Shown here: positions 16,174 to 54,328 of the stretch, piece after piece
Layout of the letters: every line of letters begins with the position of its first letter
Position numbering within the stretch: the stretch's first letter is position 1
Assembly: GCA_963557075.1 (NCBI GenBank)
Contig: CAUWDA010000007.1
Coordinates: 2,082-66,081 of the forward strand
Reading direction: 5' to 3'
Length of the DNA stretch: 64,000 bases
DNA from: an uncultured Flavonifractor sp.
GTDB taxonomy: Bacteria > Bacillota > Clostridia > Oscillospirales > Oscillospiraceae
Made by a program: the position numbers and the translations under genes
Notes under the pieces: model-generated
The model's input: the letters and a program-made list of their open reading frames with translations, nothing else
The model's database searches: none
Told to the model about the DNA's origin: nothing

Positions 16174-17832
16174 TCAGCGGGCGGCTTTGACAGCGCTCCA
16201 GACGTCATAACCGGTGGAGGTGGGAATGGTACCCACCCGCCAGAGGGAGACGCCGGTGACGCCGAACATCCGGGCCAGCTGCAGCTTGTCCGTAACGCTG
16301 CGGGCGTCCTCATACCAGACCTTGTAGCGGCTGCCGTCCTCGGCGGTGTAGAGGGCCCAGGGGTTGCGGTACTTCTCGCTGTAGGTCACCTCGGTATCCG
16401 GCTGGGCCAGCCGGGCGGCCAGGGTGGCGGGGCCGGGGTGATAGAGGGTGTCGTCCAGCAGCCGCCCCGCCTCGTCCACGTGGAACCCGGCGGTGGAGAA
16501 GGAGATGGCCAGCGCCACTTTGCCCACGTCGGCCACACCGGTGGCCGGGTCTGTGATGTCCCGCAGGGCCTCATACACGCTGGGGAAGGGGGTGACGGGG
16601 GAGGTGGTGTTGCCGGTGCCCACATAGGAGGACGGGATGGAGGTCCACTGGTAGTCATGGGCCATCAAAATTACCTTGTCACACACCTCGCCCAGGCCCC
16701 GGTAGTCAAAGCCGGTATACCAGGTGTCGGGCTGGACGCAGACGTACAGCGCCTTGCCGGCGGGGAGGGCGGCCCGCAGTTCTCTCATAAAGGTGACATA
16801 ATTCTTTTTTATGGTTTCCCCTTTCAGACCCTCGAAGTCAATGGTCAGCCCGGCATAGTCCCCGGCGGCTGACGCCAGGGCGCTGATGGCCTGGGCCCGG
16901 GCGCCGGCGTCATTGACCACTGCCGCCACAGTGGAGGAGGCGGTCCCGTCGGCCAGGGTCACCGAATCGGCGGCAGAGCCGAACACACACAGGTTGTAAT
17001 CCACCCCGTGGCTGTCAAAGTAATCGGTAGCAGGGGAGGGGTCGGAGGGGCGCACCCAGTCGTTGCCTCCGGCGCTGGTGGAGTTGAGGGTGGGGCCGTC
17101 CGGGCCGTATTCCAGCCGGGCCCAGCCCAGGCTGACAGCGTCCATGTCGCCGGTCAGATTGATCTGGGCATAGGAGGAGAAGGCGTAAAAGCCATGCAGG
17201 AAGTCCACCTTGGAGATGTACCGCTCATAGACCCGCACCAGCATGGCGGCGGCCTCCTCCCGGGTGGCGGAGTGGGCAGGGAGGAACTTCAGCTGGCCGT
17301 TGGGGCCGGACACACCGCGGATCATGCCGATATCGTAGGCGATGGCGATGTAGCCATGGTTGCCGGTCACGTCGCTGAAGGGGAGGGACAGGGCGGACAG
17401 GTCCTGGGCCAGAGTGTCATACCCCAGGGCCCGAACCAGCATCACCGCCATCTCCTCCCGGCTGATGAAGTCCAGAGGGCGGAAGGCGCCGCTGTCTGCC
17501 ATCACGTTGTGGGCGCGGGCGGTTTCCACGGAGGAATAGTACCACTCGCCGGTGGGGCAGTCGATGTAGGAGGGGGTGGCGGGGGAGAGGACCTCCCAGC
17601 CGAACATACGGCACAGGATCGTGACAAATTCAGCCCGGGTGAGCTCCACCCCGATGCCAAAGCGCCCGTCGAGATAGCCCTCCATCAGGCCGTAGTCCCT
17701 GGCCTTGTTGATGTCTGCCTGCGCCCAGTGGCCGTCGGTATCGGAAAAGGCCCGGGCCGGGGGAGACAGGGGGGCGGTGGAGAGAAGAAGGGCGGCAGTG
17801 AGGGCCGCCGCACAGAGCCGGCGTTTCATCAT
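16174..17832 (-). CDS. SLH-domain glycoside hydrolase family 18 protein
   Basis: Signal peptide, three SLH repeats, GLTIDFE, MAHDY, WYED, GVSLWRVG. Confidence 0.85.
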   Translation of the reverse strand: MMKRRLCAAALTAALLLSTAPLSPPARAFSDTDGHWAQADINKARDYGLMEGYLDGRFGIGVELTRAEFVTILCRMFGWEVLSPATPSYIDCPTGEWYYSSVETARAHNVMADSGAFRPLDFISREEMAVMLVRALGYDTLAQDLSALSLPFSDVTGNHGYIAIAYDIGMIRGVSGPNGQLKFLPAHSATREEAAAMLVRVYERYISKVDFLHGFYAFSSYAQINLTGDMDAVSLGWARLEYGPDGPTLNSTSAGGNDWVRPSDPSPATDYFDSHGVDYNLCVFGSAADSVTLADGTASSTVAAVVNDAGARAQAISALASAAGDYAGLTIDFEGLKGETIKKNYVTFMRELRAALPAGKALYVCVQPDTWYTGFDYRGLGEVCDKVILMAHDYQWTSIPSSYVGTGNTTSPVTPFPSVYEALRDITDPATGVADVGKVALAISFSTAGFHVDEAGRLLDDTLYHPGPATLAARLAQPDTEVTYSEKYRNPWALYTAEDGSRYKVWYEDARSVTDKLQLARMFGVTGVSLWRVGTIPTSTGYDVWSAVKAAR

Positions 17833-26691: not shown

Positions 26692-28179
26692 ATGTCGTCA
26701 AGTGTTGGAGGACGAAATAAGAATATTGGCTATTATCTTTGTGTTTTGATTGCACTGTGCCTCATTTTCTTTTTTGGCGTTGTAGTTCCTCCCTTTGCGG
26801 GAATCACACCGGCGGGAATCGGTGTTTTAGGTGTATTTTTCGGGGTCCTGCTCATCACAATCGTAACGGGAGAGACATTCTGGCCAGCTTTGATGGGCCT
26901 GTTTGGGTTGATTATCTGTGACTATACAACTGCCAGTGGGCTTTTGGCGAGTTGGTTTGGAAATGCCACCATTCAGCAGATCATCTGGGTCATGGCCCTG
27001 ACTGGTGCGGTCACAGAATCGGGAGCAGTCAATGTGTTGGCCCGCAAGGTGCTGCGCATCCGGGCGTTTCGGGGACATCCTATGCGCCTGATTGTAGGTC
27101 TGTTTTTGACAGTACTGGTGTGCTCTGCCCTGGTAAGCAGTCCCACTACCATGCTTCTGCTGTGGTATCCCATCCTGGACGGGATCTGTGAGATGTGTGG
27201 TGTGGAGAAGGACAGTGACCTGAAGCGGGAGTTGCTGCTGGGTGTCTATATTTCCGCTATGGGCGCCTATGTGCTGCCATTCAAGGGAGTTCATCTCTCC
27301 TCTATTGCTATCATCAGTGGTATTATGGAGAGTAGCGGTCTGAGTTTCAACAGTGCCCTTTATCTGGTGGCTGCAACGCTGGTGGTGTTGGCCTTTGTGC
27401 TGGTATATGCTCTGTTTATCCGTTTTGTATGGAAGACCGACCTGACTCCCCTGAAGAACTTTGATGTGAATAAGATGGGGCTCACAGAGTCCGATCTGAA
27501 GATGACTTTCAAGCAAAAAGTGTTGCTTGGCTTCATGATCTTTGGTATTATATTCCTCCTGATTGGTATGGTACTGCCTGTAGAATCCGTCATCAACGTA
27601 TTCTACAAAAAAATTGGCTCTACCTGGATTTGGATCGTCCTCTTTGCTATTTTGTGTATGATCCGAGACAAAGAGGGCAAGCCGTTTATCAATGGCGTCA
27701 AGCTCCTCCAGTCCAAGACGATGTGGGGCATCGTAGCTGTTGCTGGCTGCTTTACCATCTGCGGTTCTGCAATCGCATCCGATGATTTGGGTATTAAAGC
27801 AGCCATTGCTACAGCCCTGGGGCCTGTTTTGGGAAGCGCAAGTTGGCCCATCATGGTTACACTTTGTGTGGCAGCTTCCACTATTTTCACGAACTTTACC
27901 AACGGCATGCCTGTCAGCTTTACCATCAATGCGATTTGTATTCCTTTGGCCTGTACGATGCAGATGAATGGCGAAGGAAATGCAACGATTTTGGGTGTTG
28001 CGACCATCCTCTCCAGCATGTGTGCATTCCTTACCAACGGGGCTATTGCGTATGCACCGGTTATGCTGGGACGGGAAGAGATGACCAATAAGTTTATCTT
28101 TACCAAAGGCGTAGTGACCAACATCATCTTTATTGTTTTGGCCAGCGCCATCTGTATCGTCTTTGGATATCTGTTCTGA
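26692..28179 (+). CDS. SLC13/DASS-like anion transporter
   Basis: Many TM helices; VSSPTT and FTNFTN repeat motifs; lower-GC codon usage. Confidence 0.7.
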   Translation: MSSSVGGRNKNIGYYLCVLIALCLIFFFGVVVPPFAGITPAGIGVLGVFFGVLLITIVTGETFWPALMGLFGLIICDYTTASGLLASWFGNATIQQIIWVMALTGAVTESGAVNVLARKVLRIRAFRGHPMRLIVGLFLTVLVCSALVSSPTTMLLLWYPILDGICEMCGVEKDSDLKRELLLGVYISAMGAYVLPFKGVHLSSIAIISGIMESSGLSFNSALYLVAATLVVLAFVLVYALFIRFVWKTDLTPLKNFDVNKMGLTESDLKMTFKQKVLLGFMIFGIIFLLIGMVLPVESVINVFYKKIGSTWIWIVLFAILCMIRDKEGKPFINGVKLLQSKTMWGIVAVAGCFTICGSAIASDDLGIKAAIATALGPVLGSASWPIMVTLCVAASTIFTNFTNGMPVSFTINAICIPLACTMQMNGEGNATILGVATILSSMCAFLTNGAIAYAPVMLGREEMTNKFIFTKGVVTNIIFIVLASAICIVFGYLF

Positions 28180-47128: not shown

Positions 47129-47725
47129 ATGTTTTTCAACAAAAATCGAACCTCCGGCGTGGAGTGGCTGGTGGTGGGCCTGGGCAACCCCGGGGACAAG
47201 TACGAGAACACCCGGCACAACGTGGGGTTCCTCACCATCGACCATATTGCCGATGAGGCGCGGGTGCCGGTGCAGAAGCTGAAGTACCGGGCCCTTACCA
47301 ACACGGTGGAGCTGGGGGGCGCCAAGGTGCTGCTCATGAAGCCGGTGACCTATATGAACCTGTCCGGCGAGGCGGTGGGGGAAGCCGCCCGGTTTTATAA
47401 GATCCCCGCCGACCATGTGGTGGTCATCTCCGACGATGTGTCCCTGCCCATCGGCAAGCTGCGCATCCGCAAGGGGGGCTCCGCCGGCGGGCACAACGGC
47501 CTGAAAAATATCATCCAGCACCTGGGTACCGATCAGTTCCCCCGGGTGAAGGTGGGCGTGGGAGAGAAGCCCCACCCCGATTACGACATGGCCGACTGGG
47601 TGCTCTCCAAGTTTACGGGGGAGGACCTGAAGACCATCACCGCCGCCACCGAGAAGGCGGGCAAGGCGGTGGAGTGCCTCATTGCCGAGGGGCCCGACAA
47701 GGCCATGAACAAGTTCAACGGCTGA
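47129..47725 (+). CDS. pth: Peptidyl-tRNA hydrolase
   Basis: VGLGNPG..Y..TRHNVGF, YMNLSG, GGHNGLK. Confidence 0.96.
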   Translation: MFFNKNRTSGVEWLVVGLGNPGDKYENTRHNVGFLTIDHIADEARVPVQKLKYRALTNTVELGGAKVLLMKPVTYMNLSGEAVGEAARFYKIPADHVVVISDDVSLPIGKLRIRKGGSAGGHNGLKNIIQHLGTDQFPRVKVGVGEKPHPDYDMADWVLSKFTGEDLKTITAATEKAGKAVECLIAEGPDKAMNKFNG

Positions 47726-47736
47726 GGAAAAGAACC

Positions 47737-48192
47737 ATGATAACACTTCGTAAAATTGATCGAAGTAATTACATGAATTGCATCTGTCTGAAGGTGAGAG
47801 AGGACCAGGCCGGCTTTGTGGCAGATAACGCCCGCTCTTTGGTGGAGGCCCGGTTTGAAGAGGGCCTGTATACCCGGGCCGTCTATTCTGACGATACCAT
47901 GGTGGGTTTTGTTCTGTTTGACTATGACCCCGAAATTCCGGGCTGGTGTATGAGCCGGTTTATGATCGGCGCACAGTATCAGGGACAGGGGCTGGGCAAA
48001 GAGGCGGTGCTCCGTTTCCTGGAGTTCATGCGAGAGGAAATGAAGGTGGAGGAACTCTACCTCCATGTGGAGCAGGAAAACACCCGGGCCTATGCGCTGT
48101 ACGAAAAGCTGGGGTTCCGGACGGTGGGAGAGATTCAGTATACCTTTGACGGAACCCCCTACCGGGAGCGGCGCATGATGCGCCGGCTTTAA
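47737..48192 (+). CDS. GNAT acetyltransferase (spermidine acetyltransferase-like)
   Basis: YQGQGLGK, N..AYALYEKLGF. Confidence 0.85.
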   Translation: MITLRKIDRSNYMNCICLKVREDQAGFVADNARSLVEARFEEGLYTRAVYSDDTMVGFVLFDYDPEIPGWCMSRFMIGAQYQGQGLGKEAVLRFLEFMREEMKVEELYLHVEQENTRAYALYEKLGFRTVGEIQYTFDGTPYRERRMMRRL

Positions 48193-48314
48193 ACCCGAGG
48201 GCGGCTGTTGCCAAATCGTAACTTGCAATTCCCACTGGGGATGCTAGGATAAAAGGAGCGGGCGTGCCCGCTCCTTTTTCGCAGGGGGCACGCCGGATCT
48301 AGGAGGTGGTCTCC

Positions 48315-49145
48315 ATGGCGGGACGCAGGCTGTTTTGCCAGTACGGCCCGGTGTGTTACCGGATCTCCCTGTGGAAAGAGGGGGGACGCAAGGCGCTGGC
48401 CGACCGGCGGGCCGGGGCGCGCTGGGCGGAGTGCCGGGGGGAGGAGGGGCTGCCCGTGCTCCTCAAGGGGCACCGCTCCCCGGTGCTCCGGCGGCTGACC
48501 GGAGTGGATATGGACCTGCAGCGCAGCAAGCGGACCAATCTGGCCCTGGCCGCCGCCTGTATCGACGGGGTGGTGGTGGAGCCGGGGGAGAGCTTCTCCT
48601 TCTGGCGCCTGGTGGGCAAGCCCACTGCCCGGAAGGGCTATCAGGACGGACTTACCATCGCCAGCGGGAACCTGGGCCGGGCGGTGGGGGGCGGACTGTG
48701 CCAGCTGGCCAACCTGATCCACTATCTGGTGCTTCACAGCCCCCTCACCGTCACCGAGCTGCACCACCACTCGGACGCCCTCTTTCCCGACGACCGCCGC
48801 CGGGTGCCCTTCGGCACCGGCACCTCCATTTTTTATCCCCATGTGGATTACCGCTTCCGCAACGACACCGACCAGCCGGTCCAGCTGCGGGTGTGGCTGG
48901 ACGAGGACGACCTGTGCGGTGAGCTGCGGGGGACGGCCCTCTTCCCCCTGCGCTACCGGCTGCGGGAGGAGGGGAGCGGCTATGTCCGGGAGGGAGAAGA
49001 ATACTACCGGGTGAGCCAGGTCTACCGCATTGCCTGCGACCGGGCCACGGGCGCGGAAGTGGGGCGGGAGCTGCTGCTGGACAACCACTCCAAGGTACTC
49101 TTTGATCCCGCCCTCATCCCGGCGGATCAGATGTTACCGCGCTGA
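48315..49145 (+). CDS. VanW-family protein
   Basis: NL.LAA..IDG.VVEPGESFSFW, GGGLCQ, DYRFRNDT; size and layout as recalled for VanB-cluster VanW. Confidence 0.85.
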   Translation: MAGRRLFCQYGPVCYRISLWKEGGRKALADRRAGARWAECRGEEGLPVLLKGHRSPVLRRLTGVDMDLQRSKRTNLALAAACIDGVVVEPGESFSFWRLVGKPTARKGYQDGLTIASGNLGRAVGGGLCQLANLIHYLVLHSPLTVTELHHHSDALFPDDRRRVPFGTGTSIFYPHVDYRFRNDTDQPVQLRVWLDEDDLCGELRGTALFPLRYRLREEGSGYVREGEEYYRVSQVYRIACDRATGAEVGRELLLDNHSKVLFDPALIPADQMLPR

Positions 49146-49157
49146 AAGGAGCCCGCT

Positions 49158-50501
49158 ATGCTGCTGGAACGAATCAAGGCCCACAGTGCCGCCCTGGGCG
49201 ACCGGCCCGCCCTGACGGCGGGGGAGAAGGTGATCCGCTGGGGAGAGCTGTGGCCCATGGCCCAGGGCCTGGCGGCCAAACTGCGGGAGCAGGGGACCGG
49301 CCCGGTGGCCCTCGTGGGGGACCCGGCCGAGGTCTGGGTGCCGGTGGCCTTTGTAGCCTGCCTGCTGGCGGGGCGGCCCTACCTGCCCCTGGACCCCCTG
49401 CTGCCCCCGGCGGGACAGCGGGAGCTGCTGGAGCAGGCGGGGGCGGTCCTGCTGGACCGGCAGACGGCGGAGGAGGGCTTTTCCTCCGGATTGTCCTGCC
49501 CGCCGTCCGACGACCCTCACCGCATCGCCTATCAGATCTTTACCTCGGGCAGCACCGGCCGGCCCAAGGAGGTGGCGGTGAGCCTGGGCAATCTGGAGCA
49601 CTTTCTCCGGTGGGCCTCCGCCCTGCCGGAGATCGCCGCCGTCCTGGGCGGGACGGCGGTGGGTCAGGCCGCCTGGTCCTTTGACCTGTCGGTGGCTGAC
49701 CTCTATCTGTCTCTGCTGGGGGGCGGCACCCACGTGGCCCTCACCGGAGAGGAAAAGGAGAACTTTGCCGCCCTGTTCCGCCGGTTGGAGGCCAGCGAAG
49801 TGTCCCTGCTGGTGGCCACCCCCTCCTTTTTGCGGCTGTGCCTGATGGAACCCTCCTTCGGGCCCGACCGGCTGCCCCGGCTGCGGACGGTCCTTTCCTG
49901 CGGAGAGGTGCTGCCCCCCGCCGCCGCCCGGCGGCTGCTGGAGCGGTTTCCCGGTGTGGCGCTCCTCAATGCCTACGGCCCCACCGAGGCCACCTGCGCC
50001 GTGTGCGCCGTCCCTATTTCCCGGGAGATGTGCGCCGGACCCCTGCCCATCGGCGTGGTTGGGGAAGGGGCTGTGGATATCTCCCTGGAGGAGGGGGAGA
50101 TCGTCCTCACCGGAGCCAGTGTCTCTCCCCGGTTTGGGGGAAAGCATTCCACAGGGGACCTTGGCTATGTGGAAAACGGACTGCTCTACTGGGCGGGGCG
50201 GCGGGATCTTCAGCTGAAGTACAAGGGGTACCGGCTGGAGCCCGCCCGCATCGAGGGGGTGCTGGAGGCCCTGCCCCAGGTGGAGCGGGCGGCGGTGCTT
50301 CCCCGGCGGGACGGGGCGGGACAGGTGAAGGGCCTGACCGCCTTCGTGGAGGGGGCCGGGCTGGAGCCGGAAAAGCTGGCTCAGGCCCTGGCGGATCGGC
50401 TGCCCCCCTACCAGATCCCCGGCCAGTGGCGGCTGCTGGACCGGATGCCCCTGACGCCCAATGGAAAATGCGACCGGAAACGGCTGGAGGAGATGTTATG
50501 A
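49158..50501 (+). CDS. DltA-like adenylation enzyme (D-alanine--carrier protein ligase-like)
   Basis: FTSGSTGRPK, SFDLSV, SCGEVL, YGPTEAT, TGDLG, KYKGYRLE, NGKCDRK. Confidence 0.8.
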   Translation: MLLERIKAHSAALGDRPALTAGEKVIRWGELWPMAQGLAAKLREQGTGPVALVGDPAEVWVPVAFVACLLAGRPYLPLDPLLPPAGQRELLEQAGAVLLDRQTAEEGFSSGLSCPPSDDPHRIAYQIFTSGSTGRPKEVAVSLGNLEHFLRWASALPEIAAVLGGTAVGQAAWSFDLSVADLYLSLLGGGTHVALTGEEKENFAALFRRLEASEVSLLVATPSFLRLCLMEPSFGPDRLPRLRTVLSCGEVLPPAAARRLLERFPGVALLNAYGPTEATCAVCAVPISREMCAGPLPIGVVGEGAVDISLEEGEIVLTGASVSPRFGGKHSTGDLGYVENGLLYWAGRRDLQLKYKGYRLEPARIEGVLEALPQVERAAVLPRRDGAGQVKGLTAFVEGAGLEPEKLAQALADRLPPYQIPGQWRLLDRMPLTPNGKCDRKRLEEML

Positions 50502-50743
50502 TGATCGGAGACGATGCGATCCGGGACCTGCTGGTGCAGGTCTGCGGCACCCGGGAGGCCCTCCGCCCCGGAGCCGACCTGCTGGAGGAGGGCATATTGG
50601 ACTCCCTGGCCCTCATCGACCTGCTGGAGGGGCTGGAGGATCTGGGTATCCTGCTCCAGCCGACCCGGGTCCCCAGGGACGCATTTCGCACGGTGGAGGG
50701 CATTCTGGCCCTCTGCCGGCAGGCGGAGGGGGCCGCTCCATAA
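50498..50743 (+). CDS. DltC-like acyl carrier protein
   Basis: LLEEGILDSLA phosphopantetheine motif; ATGA overlap with the dltA-like gene. Confidence 0.8.
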   Translation: MMIGDDAIRDLLVQVCGTREALRPGADLLEEGILDSLALIDLLEGLEDLGILLQPTRVPRDAFRTVEGILALCRQAEGAAP

Positions 50744-50812
50744 GGCGGGTTCCGGCTCAGGAGTATGATGTGCCTGCGGGCTCCGAATTTTTCGATATGA
50801 TTGAGGTGTACC

Positions 50813-54328
<3,516 letters not shown>

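What the first reader, a model, noticed from the sequence alone, without database searches (positions are those of the whole stretch)
48315..50743. vanW - dltA-like - dltC-like operon with no dltB/dltD
SEEN: a VanW homolog is followed after 12 bp by an adenylation enzyme, which overlaps (ATGA) a carrier protein. A hairpin/promoter region precedes it and mfd follows; no MBOAT (DltB) or DltD gene is nearby. The A-domain keeps SFDLSV and the CGE cysteine. The VanW protein has no evident signal or TM segment and contains GGGLCQ and HHH. KNOWN: in DltA this Cys is linked to D-Ala selectivity; VanW function is unknown. INFERENCE: VanW may be a Cys/His aminoacyl-transferase that takes D-Ala (or another small amino acid) from the carrier to a cytoplasmic acceptor. 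That would be a non-canonical Dlt-like pathway and a clue to VanW function.
Basis: partly seen in the sequence, partly recalled or inferred. Interest (0 to 1): 0.65.

Follow-up and report, generated by a model that had tools for sequence, protein, structure and literature searches.

The report
VanW–DltA-like–DltC-like three-gene cassette
A tightly packed, widely conserved but unstudied gene trio in gut Clostridia pairs a D-alanine-type activating enzyme and its carrier protein with a cytoplasmic relative of a newly discovered cell-wall cross-linking enzyme, which suggests an undescribed way of attaching an amino acid to a cell target.

Summary
At 48315-50743 a 276-aa signal-less VanW-domain protein is followed after 12 bp by a 447-aa DltA-family adenylating enzyme. 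That enzyme overlaps (ATGA) an 81-aa DltC-like carrier. The window is from a Flavonifractor.

The linkage is not chance. Of the 80 closest VanW loci in species-level genomes (53-95% identity), 73 have the adenylase directly downstream, and nearly all complete ones have the carrier. The surrounding genes differ. Three adenylase homologs at about 40% identity all have VanW upstream. No MBOAT or DltD gene turned up in the window or among about 120 neighbouring genes. A Sfp-type phosphopantetheinyl transferase is the most recurrent extra neighbour.

VanW domains are Cys-His-Asp L,D-transpeptidases (PNAS 2024), and this protein keeps that triad.

My best reading (about 0.45) is carrier-dependent aminoacyl transfer by VanW to a cytoplasmic acceptor, probably a cell-wall precursor. 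The amino acid may not be D-Ala, because the Met lining DltA's methyl pocket is almost always Ala here.

Eighty more distant stand-alone VanW loci lack these partners, so VanW does not inherently need a carrier.

The parts
48223..48314 (+). Cassette leader. It holds promoter-like hexamers TTGCAA (48223-48228) and TAGGAT (48245-48250), a GC hairpin (48255-48274) followed by T5 (48275-48279), and the RBS AGGAGG (48301-48306).
   Evidence: Sequence and terminator-like hit. The roughly 115-nt leader is conserved upstream of VanW in six Flavonifractor loci whether the upstream gene is the GNAT or pth. It therefore travels with the cassette. Its function (terminator of upstream transcripts, 5' stabiliser or attenuator) was not determined.
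48315..49145 (+). Stand-alone, signal-less VanW-domain protein (276 aa). The putative catalytic residues are Cys129 (in GGGLCQ), His152 and Asp159.
   Evidence: - Pfam PF04294, 3.6e-39.
- NCBIfam vanW-gen 170 bits, below the 365 cut-off.
- No TM segment.
- C129, Q130, H152, D159, R162 and R232 are invariant in 76 cassette, 7 solo and 64 environmental stand-alone VanW proteins.
- AF2 model pLDDT 86.
- No significant PDB fold or sequence match.
49158..50501 (+). DltA-family adenylating (aminoacyl-carrier protein) ligase, 447 aa. It is a short form with loop deletions between core motifs A5 and A8.
   Evidence: - Pfam AMP-binding and AMP-binding_C.
- NCBIfam DltA subfamily 280 bits (cut-off 476) and equivalog 265 bits (cut-off 560).
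- Best solved relatives over the core are B. cereus and B. subtilis DltA, at 1.4e-62 and 2.5e-56.
- Motifs kept: P-loop TSGSTGRPKEV, SFDLSV, SCGEVLP, NAYGPTEAT and PNGKCDRK.
- Pocket comparison.
50498..50743 (+). DltC-like carrier protein (81 aa, acidic). The phosphopantetheine attachment Ser lies in EEGILDSLA.
   Evidence: - Pfam PP-binding 22.4 bits (cut-off 20.8).
- Best NCBIfam hits are DltC models, 26 bits against a cut-off of 68.
- The Ser is invariant in 56 of 56 cassette carriers within GLLDS(L/M)A.
- The start overlaps the adenylase stop as ATGA.

Best explanation
The three genes form one functional module.

1. The DltA-family ligase adenylates a small amino acid. It is D-Ala-like, but possibly slightly larger than D-Ala.
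2. The ligase loads that amino acid as a thioester onto the phosphopantetheine arm of the dedicated DltC-like carrier.
3. The cytoplasmic VanW-family enzyme uses its Cys129-His152-Asp159 centre to take the aminoacyl group from the carrier as an acyl-Cys intermediate. This is the same chemistry that VanW-type L,D-transpeptidases use on peptide donors.
4. VanW passes the group to an amine or hydroxyl acceptor on the cytoplasmic side, most probably a peptidoglycan or other cell-envelope precursor.

In this reading VanW replaces DltB/DltD/DltX.

Shown here: gene order, coupling, conservation, intact catalytic and attachment residues, and cytoplasmic prediction.

Inferred: that the carrier is loaded, that VanW acts on the loaded carrier, the direction of transfer, and the acceptor.
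For: Linkage:
- 73 of 80 closest VanW loci have the adenylase directly downstream, and about 66 have the carrier.
- Junctions are mostly -4 or -1 nt overlaps.
- The pth...mfd context is limited to Flavonifractor, Pseudoflavonifractor and their closest relatives (19 of 82 loci fetched by then). Elsewhere the trio sits in unrelated contexts.
- Reverse check: 3 of 3 adenylase homologs at about 40% identity have VanW upstream and a small carrier gene downstream.
- Pairwise divergences of the three proteins are correlated (Spearman 0.58 for VanW against the adenylase). VanW is the most constrained: 60% mean identity, against 39.5% for the adenylase and 41% for the carrier.

Competence of the parts:
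- The VanW catalytic residues are invariant.
- The adenylase core motifs and catalytic Lys are present.
- The carrier Ser is invariant.
- A Sfp-type phosphopantetheinyl transferase lies divergently upstream in 4 independent loci. It is the most recurrent extra neighbour family.

Chemistry and location:
- VanW domains use a thioacyl-Cys intermediate (PMC11348318).
- None of the three proteins has a TM segment or signal.

No Dlt membrane partner:
- No recurrent family other than transport and regulation genes appeared among 63 downstream and 59 upstream neighbour genes.
- None was found among the window's membrane proteins.

Hints at the envelope and D-Ala:
- In one clade the trio follows a HisKA_3/GerE two-component system and an ABC-2 exporter, and it precedes an amino-acid ABC importer.
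- The same-architecture VanW-B sits between vanY and vanH.
- On two plasmids from different phyla, VanW is coupled to a VanX-type D-Ala-D-Ala dipeptidase.

Expression: metatranscriptome contigs span the VanW-adenylase junction and the adenylase-carrier-mfd junctions. This is weak evidence, because DNA carry-over is possible.
Against: - No experiment or structure shows a VanW-carrier contact, and complex prediction was not possible with these tools.
- 7 of 80 close orthologs keep VanW without the adenylase and carrier. L021 and L026 share the surrounding context of trio-bearing relatives.
- 80 of 80 more distant stand-alone VanW loci from metagenomes have no adenylase, carrier or M15 neighbour and no common partner at all. 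VanW therefore has a carrier-independent activity in most lineages.
- Known VanW and YkuD transpeptidases take a peptide bond at an L-centre as donor, not an aminoacyl thioester.
- The acceptor is unknown, and no fourth conserved gene points to it.
- The cassette adenylases are no closer to each other (about 45% identity) than to Bacillus DltA (about 40%) by a wide margin. They are not cleanly separated from DltA in a quick tree.
Confidence: 0.45

Rival explanations
1. Same module, opposite polarity. VanW first forms its usual peptidyl-Cys intermediate from a cytoplasmic stem-peptide precursor (a tetrapeptide, as for L,D-transpeptidases). The amino group of the carrier-bound or free D-amino acid then acts as the incoming nucleophile. 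This would be a cytoplasmic exchange or editing reaction on UDP-MurNAc-peptide or lipid-linked precursors.
For: - L,D-transpeptidases, including the VanW type, use tetrapeptide donors and accept D-amino acids as nucleophiles (PMC11348318; PMC12729407).
- VanW-B lies next to the tetrapeptide-producing VanY.
- VanX-type dipeptidases, which release free D-Ala, are coupled to VanW on two plasmids.
- An amino-acid ABC importer follows VanW in one clade, even where the adenylase and carrier are missing.
Against: - A thioester-activated carboxyl is unnecessary if the amino acid only serves as a nucleophile. The tight coupling to an ATP-consuming loading system would then be unexplained, unless the product thioester is used further.
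- There is no direct evidence.
Confidence: 0.2
2. A minimal carrier-dependent (NRPS-like) pathway for a small soluble product. The adenylase and carrier activate an amino acid, and VanW acts as the condensing or releasing catalyst. The product would be a dipeptide or amide metabolite or signal rather than a cell-envelope modification.
For: - The adenylase is also similar to NRPS A domains (LgrA module 2, 3.4e-69).
- A Sfp-type PPTase, typical of secondary metabolism, accompanies the trio in 4 loci.
- No conserved membrane or envelope gene is attached.
Against: - The core region matches DltA best, and the carrier matches DltC best.
- VanW is otherwise known only from peptidoglycan and vancomycin-cluster contexts.
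- There is no exporter or tailoring gene.
- The trio sits among housekeeping genes (pth, mfd) in Flavonifractor.
Confidence: 0.13
3. Ordinary teichoic-acid D-alanylation with split genes. The adenylase and carrier are this lineage's DltA and DltC and work with DltB/DltD/DltX encoded elsewhere. VanW is a separate cytoplasmic peptidoglycan-peptide enzyme (for example an L,D-carboxypeptidase for recycling) that is merely co-regulated.
For: - The adenylase and carrier are DltA- and DltC-family proteins with Asp, Leu, Cys and Val pocket residues retained.
- The cassette adenylases are not cleanly separated from Bacillus DltA in a tree.
- Most stand-alone VanW proteins work without a carrier.
- The whole genome could not be searched.
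Against: - In about 66 trio-bearing loci from many contexts, dltB and dltD are never adjacent, whereas dlt genes normally form one operon (established knowledge).
- Both proteins score far below the NCBIfam DltA and DltC cut-offs.
- The side-chain pocket Met is replaced by Ala in nearly all members.
- Translational coupling and 91% co-occurrence with VanW are hard to explain by co-regulation alone.
Confidence: 0.12

Closest known systems
Dlt pathway (DltA-DltC-DltB-DltD, with DltX) for D-alanylation of teichoic acids
   Same: - A stand-alone DltA-family adenylating ligase is translationally coupled to a roughly 80-aa DltC-like carrier with the (L)LDS serine.
- The pocket residues Asp197, Leu198, Cys269 and Val303 (B. 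cereus numbering) are retained.
   Different: - No MBOAT (DltB), DltD or DltX lies in the window or beside any of about 66 related trios. A cytoplasmic VanW protein is the constant third partner instead.
- The pocket changes are Met201 to Ala and Val301 to Cys or Ser.
- Scores are below the curated DltA and DltC cut-offs.
VanW-domain L,D-transpeptidases Ldt4 and Ldt5 of Clostridioides difficile (PMC11348318)
   Same: - Pfam VanW domain with the conserved Cys/His/Asp set.
- The expected acyl-Cys chemistry.
- The C-terminal beta-rich part gives weak G5-like fold hits, as in Ldt4 and Ldt5.
   Different: - Ldt4 and Ldt5 are membrane-anchored and extracellular, with PG4 domains. This protein has no signal, TM or PG4 domain and is encoded with cytoplasmic partners.
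- L,D-transpeptidase activity was not tested here. Four of seven foreign VanW proteins tested in that study showed none.
VanW of vanB and vanG glycopeptide-resistance clusters (function unknown)
   Same: - The same stand-alone architecture of about 275 aa without a signal.
- It aligns end to end, at 31-35% identity.
- The invariant residues GGGxCQ and His152 are shared.
   Different: - It is embedded in vanR-S-Y-W-H-B-X rather than with an adenylase and carrier.
- The window protein is below the vanW-gen cut-off (170 against 365 bits).
- Cassette-type VanW has subfamily-specific residues next to the active site: Asp154 in 76 of 76 and Arg163 in 67 of 76.
Cys-dependent transferases that unload carrier- or CoA-thioesters onto amines (BtrH in butirosin biosynthesis, arylamine N-acetyltransferase, RifF). 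This comparison is recalled from established knowledge and was not tested here.
   Same: A Cys-His(-Asp) enzyme takes an acyl or aminoacyl group from a phosphopantetheine thioester as an acyl-Cys intermediate and forms an amide. This is what the proposed mechanism works like.
   Different: The folds are unrelated. The VanW fold has no significant match in the PDB. No membership is claimed.

Membership tests
DltA (D-alanine--D-alanyl carrier protein ligase) | ANL-superfamily adenylating fold with core motifs (P-loop, A4 FDxS, A5 YGPTE, A10 catalytic Lys) | tested here: met
   Pfam AMP-binding 1.7e-44 plus AMP-binding_C. The alignment to B. cereus and B. subtilis DltA shows all the motifs.
DltA (D-alanine--D-alanyl carrier protein ligase) | Reaches the curated NCBIfam DltA score | tested here: not met
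   NF003417 280.2 bits against a cut-off of 476. TIGR01734 264.9 bits against 559.85.
DltA (D-alanine--D-alanyl carrier protein ligase) | D-Ala pocket: Asp and Val bind the amine; Leu, Met and Cys form the methyl cavity, with the Cys giving D-selectivity (PMC8972799) | tested here: inconclusive
   Asp197, Leu198, Cys269 and Val303 are kept in all or nearly all cassette adenylases. Met201 is Ala in nearly all, and Val301 is Cys or Ser in most. The pocket is DltA-like but enlarged.
DltA (D-alanine--D-alanyl carrier protein ligase) | Activates D-alanine and loads DltC | not testable with these tools
   This needs ATP-PPi exchange and carrier-loading assays.
DltC (D-alanyl carrier protein) | Small acidic carrier with the phosphopantetheine Ser in an (L)LDS motif, encoded next to the ligase | tested here: met
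   81 aa with 15 acidic and 7 basic residues. PP-binding 22.4 bits against a cut-off of 20.8. The Ser is invariant in 56 of 56. ATGA overlap with the ligase.
DltC (D-alanyl carrier protein) | Reaches the curated NCBIfam DltC score | tested here: not met
   NF003464 26.1 bits against 68. TIGR01688 20.8 bits against 52.35.
Dlt system (teichoic-acid D-alanylation) | DltB (MBOAT) and DltD encoded with dltA and dltC | tested here: not met
   Neither is among the window's membrane or large ORFs. No recurrent MBOAT or DltD family was found among 122 neighbour genes of related trios. Each census lists only its 25 most frequent families, so a single occurrence could be hidden.
Dlt system (teichoic-acid D-alanylation) | DltB and DltD present anywhere in the genome | not tested
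VanW domain family (PF04294) | Pfam gathering score and conserved Cys/His/Asp | tested here: met
   133.7 bits against 27. C129, H152 and D159 are invariant across 147 stand-alone VanW proteins.
VanW-type L,D-transpeptidase (Ldt4/Ldt5-like) | Extracytoplasmic location (TM or lipoprotein anchor) with a peptidoglycan-binding PG4 domain | tested here: not met
   There is no hydrophobic segment. The VanW domain is the only Pfam hit. The N-terminus is an amphipathic helix in the AF2 model.
VanW-type L,D-transpeptidase (Ldt4/Ldt5-like) | Forms 3-3 cross-links or incorporates tetrapeptide probes | not testable with these tools
   This needs a biochemical assay.
Glycopeptide-resistance accessory protein VanW (NCBIfam vanW-gen, -B, -G) | Curated score and location in a van cluster | tested here: not met
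   169.7 bits against 365. There are no van genes in the neighbourhood.

The most novel reading that the evidence does not exclude
Cassette-type VanW is a carrier-protein-dependent transpeptidase that edits peptidoglycan precursors inside the cell. It would install a thioester-activated D-amino acid on the stem peptide of UDP-MurNAc-peptide or lipid II, either on the side chain of residue 3 or at position 4 or 5. That would be a third route of stem-peptide diversification, beside the Mur/Ddl/ATP-grasp ligases and the tRNA-dependent Fem transferases. By extension, the same-architecture VanW of vanB and vanG clusters would be a cytoplasmic precursor-editing enzyme acting on the tetrapeptide made by VanY.
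Probability: 0.2. Interest if true: 0.85.

Novelty: new variant of a known kind. Interest (0 to 1): 0.66.

Why it matters
- The role of non-transpeptidase VanW homologs, including the VanW of vancomycin-resistance clusters, is an acknowledged open question (PMC11348318; PMC12729407).
- This cassette gives a concrete, testable partner set for one large VanW subfamily: a loadable carrier and its ligase.
- It would also be the first Dlt-like aminoacyl-carrier system that works without the MBOAT DltB and without DltD.
- More than 580 of the species-level genomes scanned encode a close relative of this VanW, and 73 of the 80 closest examined carry the full trio. Among them are common human and animal gut genera: Flavonifractor, Pseudoflavonifractor, Gemmiger and Allofournierella. 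Its product could therefore bear on cell-envelope chemistry, antibiotic tolerance and host recognition of abundant commensals.

Tried and rejected
- **Whole-genome search for DltB, DltD and VanW paralogs.** Genome-wide absence of dltB/dltD stays untested.
- **Riboswitch or T-box leader that would name the amino acid.** The Rfam scan of 47600-51000 gave only two sub-threshold chance hits. The consensus promoter scan found nothing.
- **Solved structure or fold relative for VanW.** There was no PDB sequence hit and no significant Foldseek hit, only weak G5-like matches.
- **A general "D-alanine theme" for stand-alone VanW.** Two plasmid cases with VanX-type dipeptidase looked promising. However, 80 further stand-alone VanW loci from metagenomes had no M15, adenylase, carrier or any shared neighbour. 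I dropped the theme as a general rule and kept it only as a hint.
- **A conserved fourth gene or acceptor clue.** The neighbour censuses were heterogeneous. I did not find the WaaL-like or TraX partners mentioned in earlier notes from other genomes.
- **Monophyly of the cassette adenylases against DltA.** A quick FastTree with only two Bacillus DltA fragments was inconclusive.
- **Natural VanW-adenylase or adenylase-carrier fusions.** None appeared among the 120 best adenylase homologs.
- **Literature.** Searches for VanW together with DltA, carrier protein or adenylation found no description of this cassette.
Full report
**What is there**

The region sits in a housekeeping run: glmU-like, prs, pth, a GNAT acetyltransferase, then the three genes, then mfd and secA.

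- VanW starts at ATG 48315. AGGAGG lies 8 nt upstream, and the GTG at 48306 falls inside that RBS. It ends at 49145.
- After TGA and 12 bp containing AAGGAG, the adenylase runs from 49158 to 50501.
- The adenylase stop overlaps the carrier start as ATGA. The carrier runs from 50498 to 50743.
- About 70 nt later mfd begins, with no terminator between.

Family assignments:
- VanW: Pfam VanW, 133.7 bits.
- Adenylase: AMP-binding plus AMP-binding_C.
- Carrier: PP-binding.
- NCBIfam ranks DltA first for the adenylase (280 and 265 bits) and DltC first for the carrier (26 bits). VanW matches vanW-gen at 170 bits. All are far below the curated cut-offs.

**Organism**

The closest VanW loci are Candidatus Flavonifractor avicola (95%) and F. 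porci (94%). The window is from a Flavonifractor (Oscillospiraceae).

**Is the linkage conserved?**

A pattern scan of species-representative genomes found at least 580 relatives of this VanW. I examined the 80 best (53-95% identity).

- The adenylase lies directly downstream in 73 of the 80.
- A carrier follows in about 66. Four of the adenylase-bearing loci without a carrier hit end at a contig edge.
- The gaps are mostly -4 or -1 nt, which indicates translational coupling.
- The prs-pth...mfd frame is found only in Flavonifractor, Pseudoflavonifractor and their closest relatives. Elsewhere the trio sits in unrelated surroundings. It therefore behaves as a unit.
- Reverse check: three adenylase homologs at about 40% identity each have VanW upstream and a 65-87-aa gene downstream.
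- VanW is much more constrained (mean pairwise identity 60%) than the adenylase (39.5%) or the carrier (41%). The divergences are correlated.
- Seven close orthologs have VanW alone. L021 and L026 keep the same flanks as trio-bearing relatives.

**Neighbours**

I ran a Pfam census on 63 downstream and 59 upstream neighbour genes from non-Flavonifractor contexts.

- No recurrent MBOAT or DltD family appeared.
- The most recurrent extra family is a Sfp-type phosphopantetheinyl transferase, divergently upstream in four loci. This supports a real, modified carrier.
- One clade has this order: ABC-2 exporter, HisKA_3 kinase, GerE response regulator, VanW, adenylase, carrier, amino-acid ABC importer.
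- A rumen clade adds a membrane beta-propeller protein and an SBP_bac_3 protein.
- The window's own membrane and large ORFs are not DltB or DltD.

**The parts**

*Adenylase.* Over its core it matches B. cereus and B. subtilis DltA best (1.4e-62 and 2.5e-56). The P-loop, FDLSV, CGEVLP, YGPTEAT and PNGKxDR motifs are present. It has deletions between A5 and A8.

In DltA the D-Ala amine is held by Asp197, Thr297 and Val301. The methyl group faces Leu, Met and Cys, and the Cys selects the D-isomer (PMC8972799). Across about 70 cassette adenylases:
- Asp197, Leu198, Cys269 and Val303 are kept.
- Met201 is Ala in nearly all.
- Val301 is Cys or Ser in most.

The enzyme is therefore DltA-like with an enlarged side-chain cavity. 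D-Ala is possible, and a slightly larger small D-amino acid is equally possible. The cassette adenylases are about 40% identical to Bacillus DltA and about 45% identical to each other. A quick tree does not separate them cleanly.

*Carrier.* It has an invariant Ser within GLLDS(L/M)A.

*VanW.* C129, Q130, H152, D159, R162 and R232 are invariant in 147 stand-alone VanW proteins. Asp154 and Arg163, next to the catalytic His and Asp, are specific to the cassette subfamily. The AF2 model is confident (pLDDT 86). There is no significant PDB relative by sequence or fold, which agrees with the published statement that VanW is a novel fold.

**What is known**

Since 2024 the VanW domain has been known as an L,D-transpeptidase catalytic domain with an essential Cys and a proposed Cys-His-Asp triad. 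The characterised enzymes (Ldt4 and Ldt5) are membrane-anchored and extracellular, with PG4 domains. Four of seven foreign VanW proteins showed no activity, and the role of such homologs is open.

The stand-alone, signal-less architecture of about 275 aa seen here is shared by:
- VanW-B, at 34-35% local identity, encoded between vanY and vanH;
- plasmid homologs in Bacillus mycoides, Arthrobacter, a Bartonella species and Aureibacter.

In the last two, VanW is coupled to a VanX-type D-Ala-D-Ala dipeptidase. However, 80 further stand-alone VanW loci from metagenomes show no adenylase, carrier, M15 or any common neighbour. The carrier partnership is therefore a speciality of the gut-Clostridia subfamily, and VanW as such does not need it.

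Literature searches found no description of the cassette. Earlier notes of this scan report the same trio in at least ten other genomes. I verified the conservation claim and the PPTase claim independently. I did not see the WaaL-like or TraX variants.

**Expression and leader**

One gut metatranscriptome has contigs that span VanW-adenylase (48467-49398) and adenylase-carrier-mfd (49608-51158). This is weak support for expression and co-transcription.

The 115-nt leader holds TTGCAA-16-TAGGAT, a hairpin plus T5, and the RBS. It is conserved upstream of VanW whether the preceding gene is the GNAT or pth, so it belongs to the cassette. Its role is undetermined.

**Interpretation**

The best-supported reading is a carrier-dependent aminoacyl-transfer module.

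1. The ligase loads the carrier.
2. VanW's Cys takes the aminoacyl group from the thioester.
3. VanW passes it to a cytoplasmic acceptor, most likely a cell-wall precursor.

My confidence is about 0.9 that the three genes form one functional unit and about 0.85 that the ligase loads the carrier. It is about 0.55 that VanW acts on the loaded carrier, in either polarity. It is about 0.45 for the full statement.

The rivals are:
- the reverse polarity, with VanW peptidyl-enzyme and the amino acid as nucleophile;
- a small soluble NRPS-like product;
- split canonical Dlt with an unrelated VanW.

**Verdict**

The finding is real, conserved and undescribed in the literature I could search. It is a new variant that combines two known kinds, with the mechanism inferred rather than shown.

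Noticed in passing
window 48223-48314; L003-L007 upstream of VanW: A roughly 115-nt leader is conserved upstream of VanW regardless of whether the preceding gene is the GNAT or pth. It holds promoter-like TTGCAA-16-TAGGAT followed immediately by a GC hairpin with a T5 run, then the RBS. A terminator-like hairpin right after a promoter is odd. It could be a terminator for upstream genes, a 5' stabiliser or an attenuator.
   Followed up: partly
L025, L027, L028, L029, L032, L040 (and L021, L026 without the adenylase and carrier): One Oscillospirales clade places VanW(-adenylase-carrier) directly after a HisKA_3 sensor kinase and GerE-type response regulator. A divergent ABC-2 exporter lies upstream and an amino-acid ABC importer (SBP_bac_3) downstream. 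The layout resembles an antibiotic or envelope-stress module.
   Followed up: partly
L088 5001-10087 (Bartonella sp. HY038 plasmid); L089 1501-5717 (Aureibacter tunicatorum plasmid): In two different phyla, a stand-alone VanW is translationally coupled to a VanX-type M15 D-Ala-D-Ala dipeptidase and to large proteins with an NADase_transloc / F5/8 type C domain. This is another uncharacterised VanW gene set.
   Followed up: partly
L050, L065, L072, L081, L085 downstream of the carrier gene: A rumen and Lachnospiraceae-labelled clade adds two genes after the trio. One is a roughly 590-aa membrane-anchored protein with a beta-propeller, whose Pfam model (Beta-prop_ACSF4 / PQQ_2) is named after a beta-alanine-activating enzyme. 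The other is a 470-517-aa protein with an SBP_bac_3 amino-acid-binding domain.
   Followed up: partly
window 48152 to 50866 (metatranscriptome run X17): One low-depth contig joins the end of the GNAT gene to the start of mfd and skips 2713 bases, which is the whole cassette. Only 23 nt lie on the shorter side, so it may come from a related strain without the cassette or be an assembly artefact.
   Followed up: no
window 16174-17832 and 24600-26693: An SLH-domain glycoside hydrolase family 18 protein suggests an S-layer or secondary cell-wall polymer in this organism. A BlaR1-type M56 sensor peptidase also lies in the window.
   Followed up: no
VanW residues 154 and 163 (window about 48774-48776 and 48801-48803): Asp154 (76 of 76) and Arg163 (67 of 76) are fixed in cassette-type VanW. 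They are Phe or Gly, and Val, Gln or Thr, in 64 environmental stand-alone VanW proteins. They flank the catalytic His152 and Asp159 and are candidate specificity or carrier-docking residues.
   Followed up: partly
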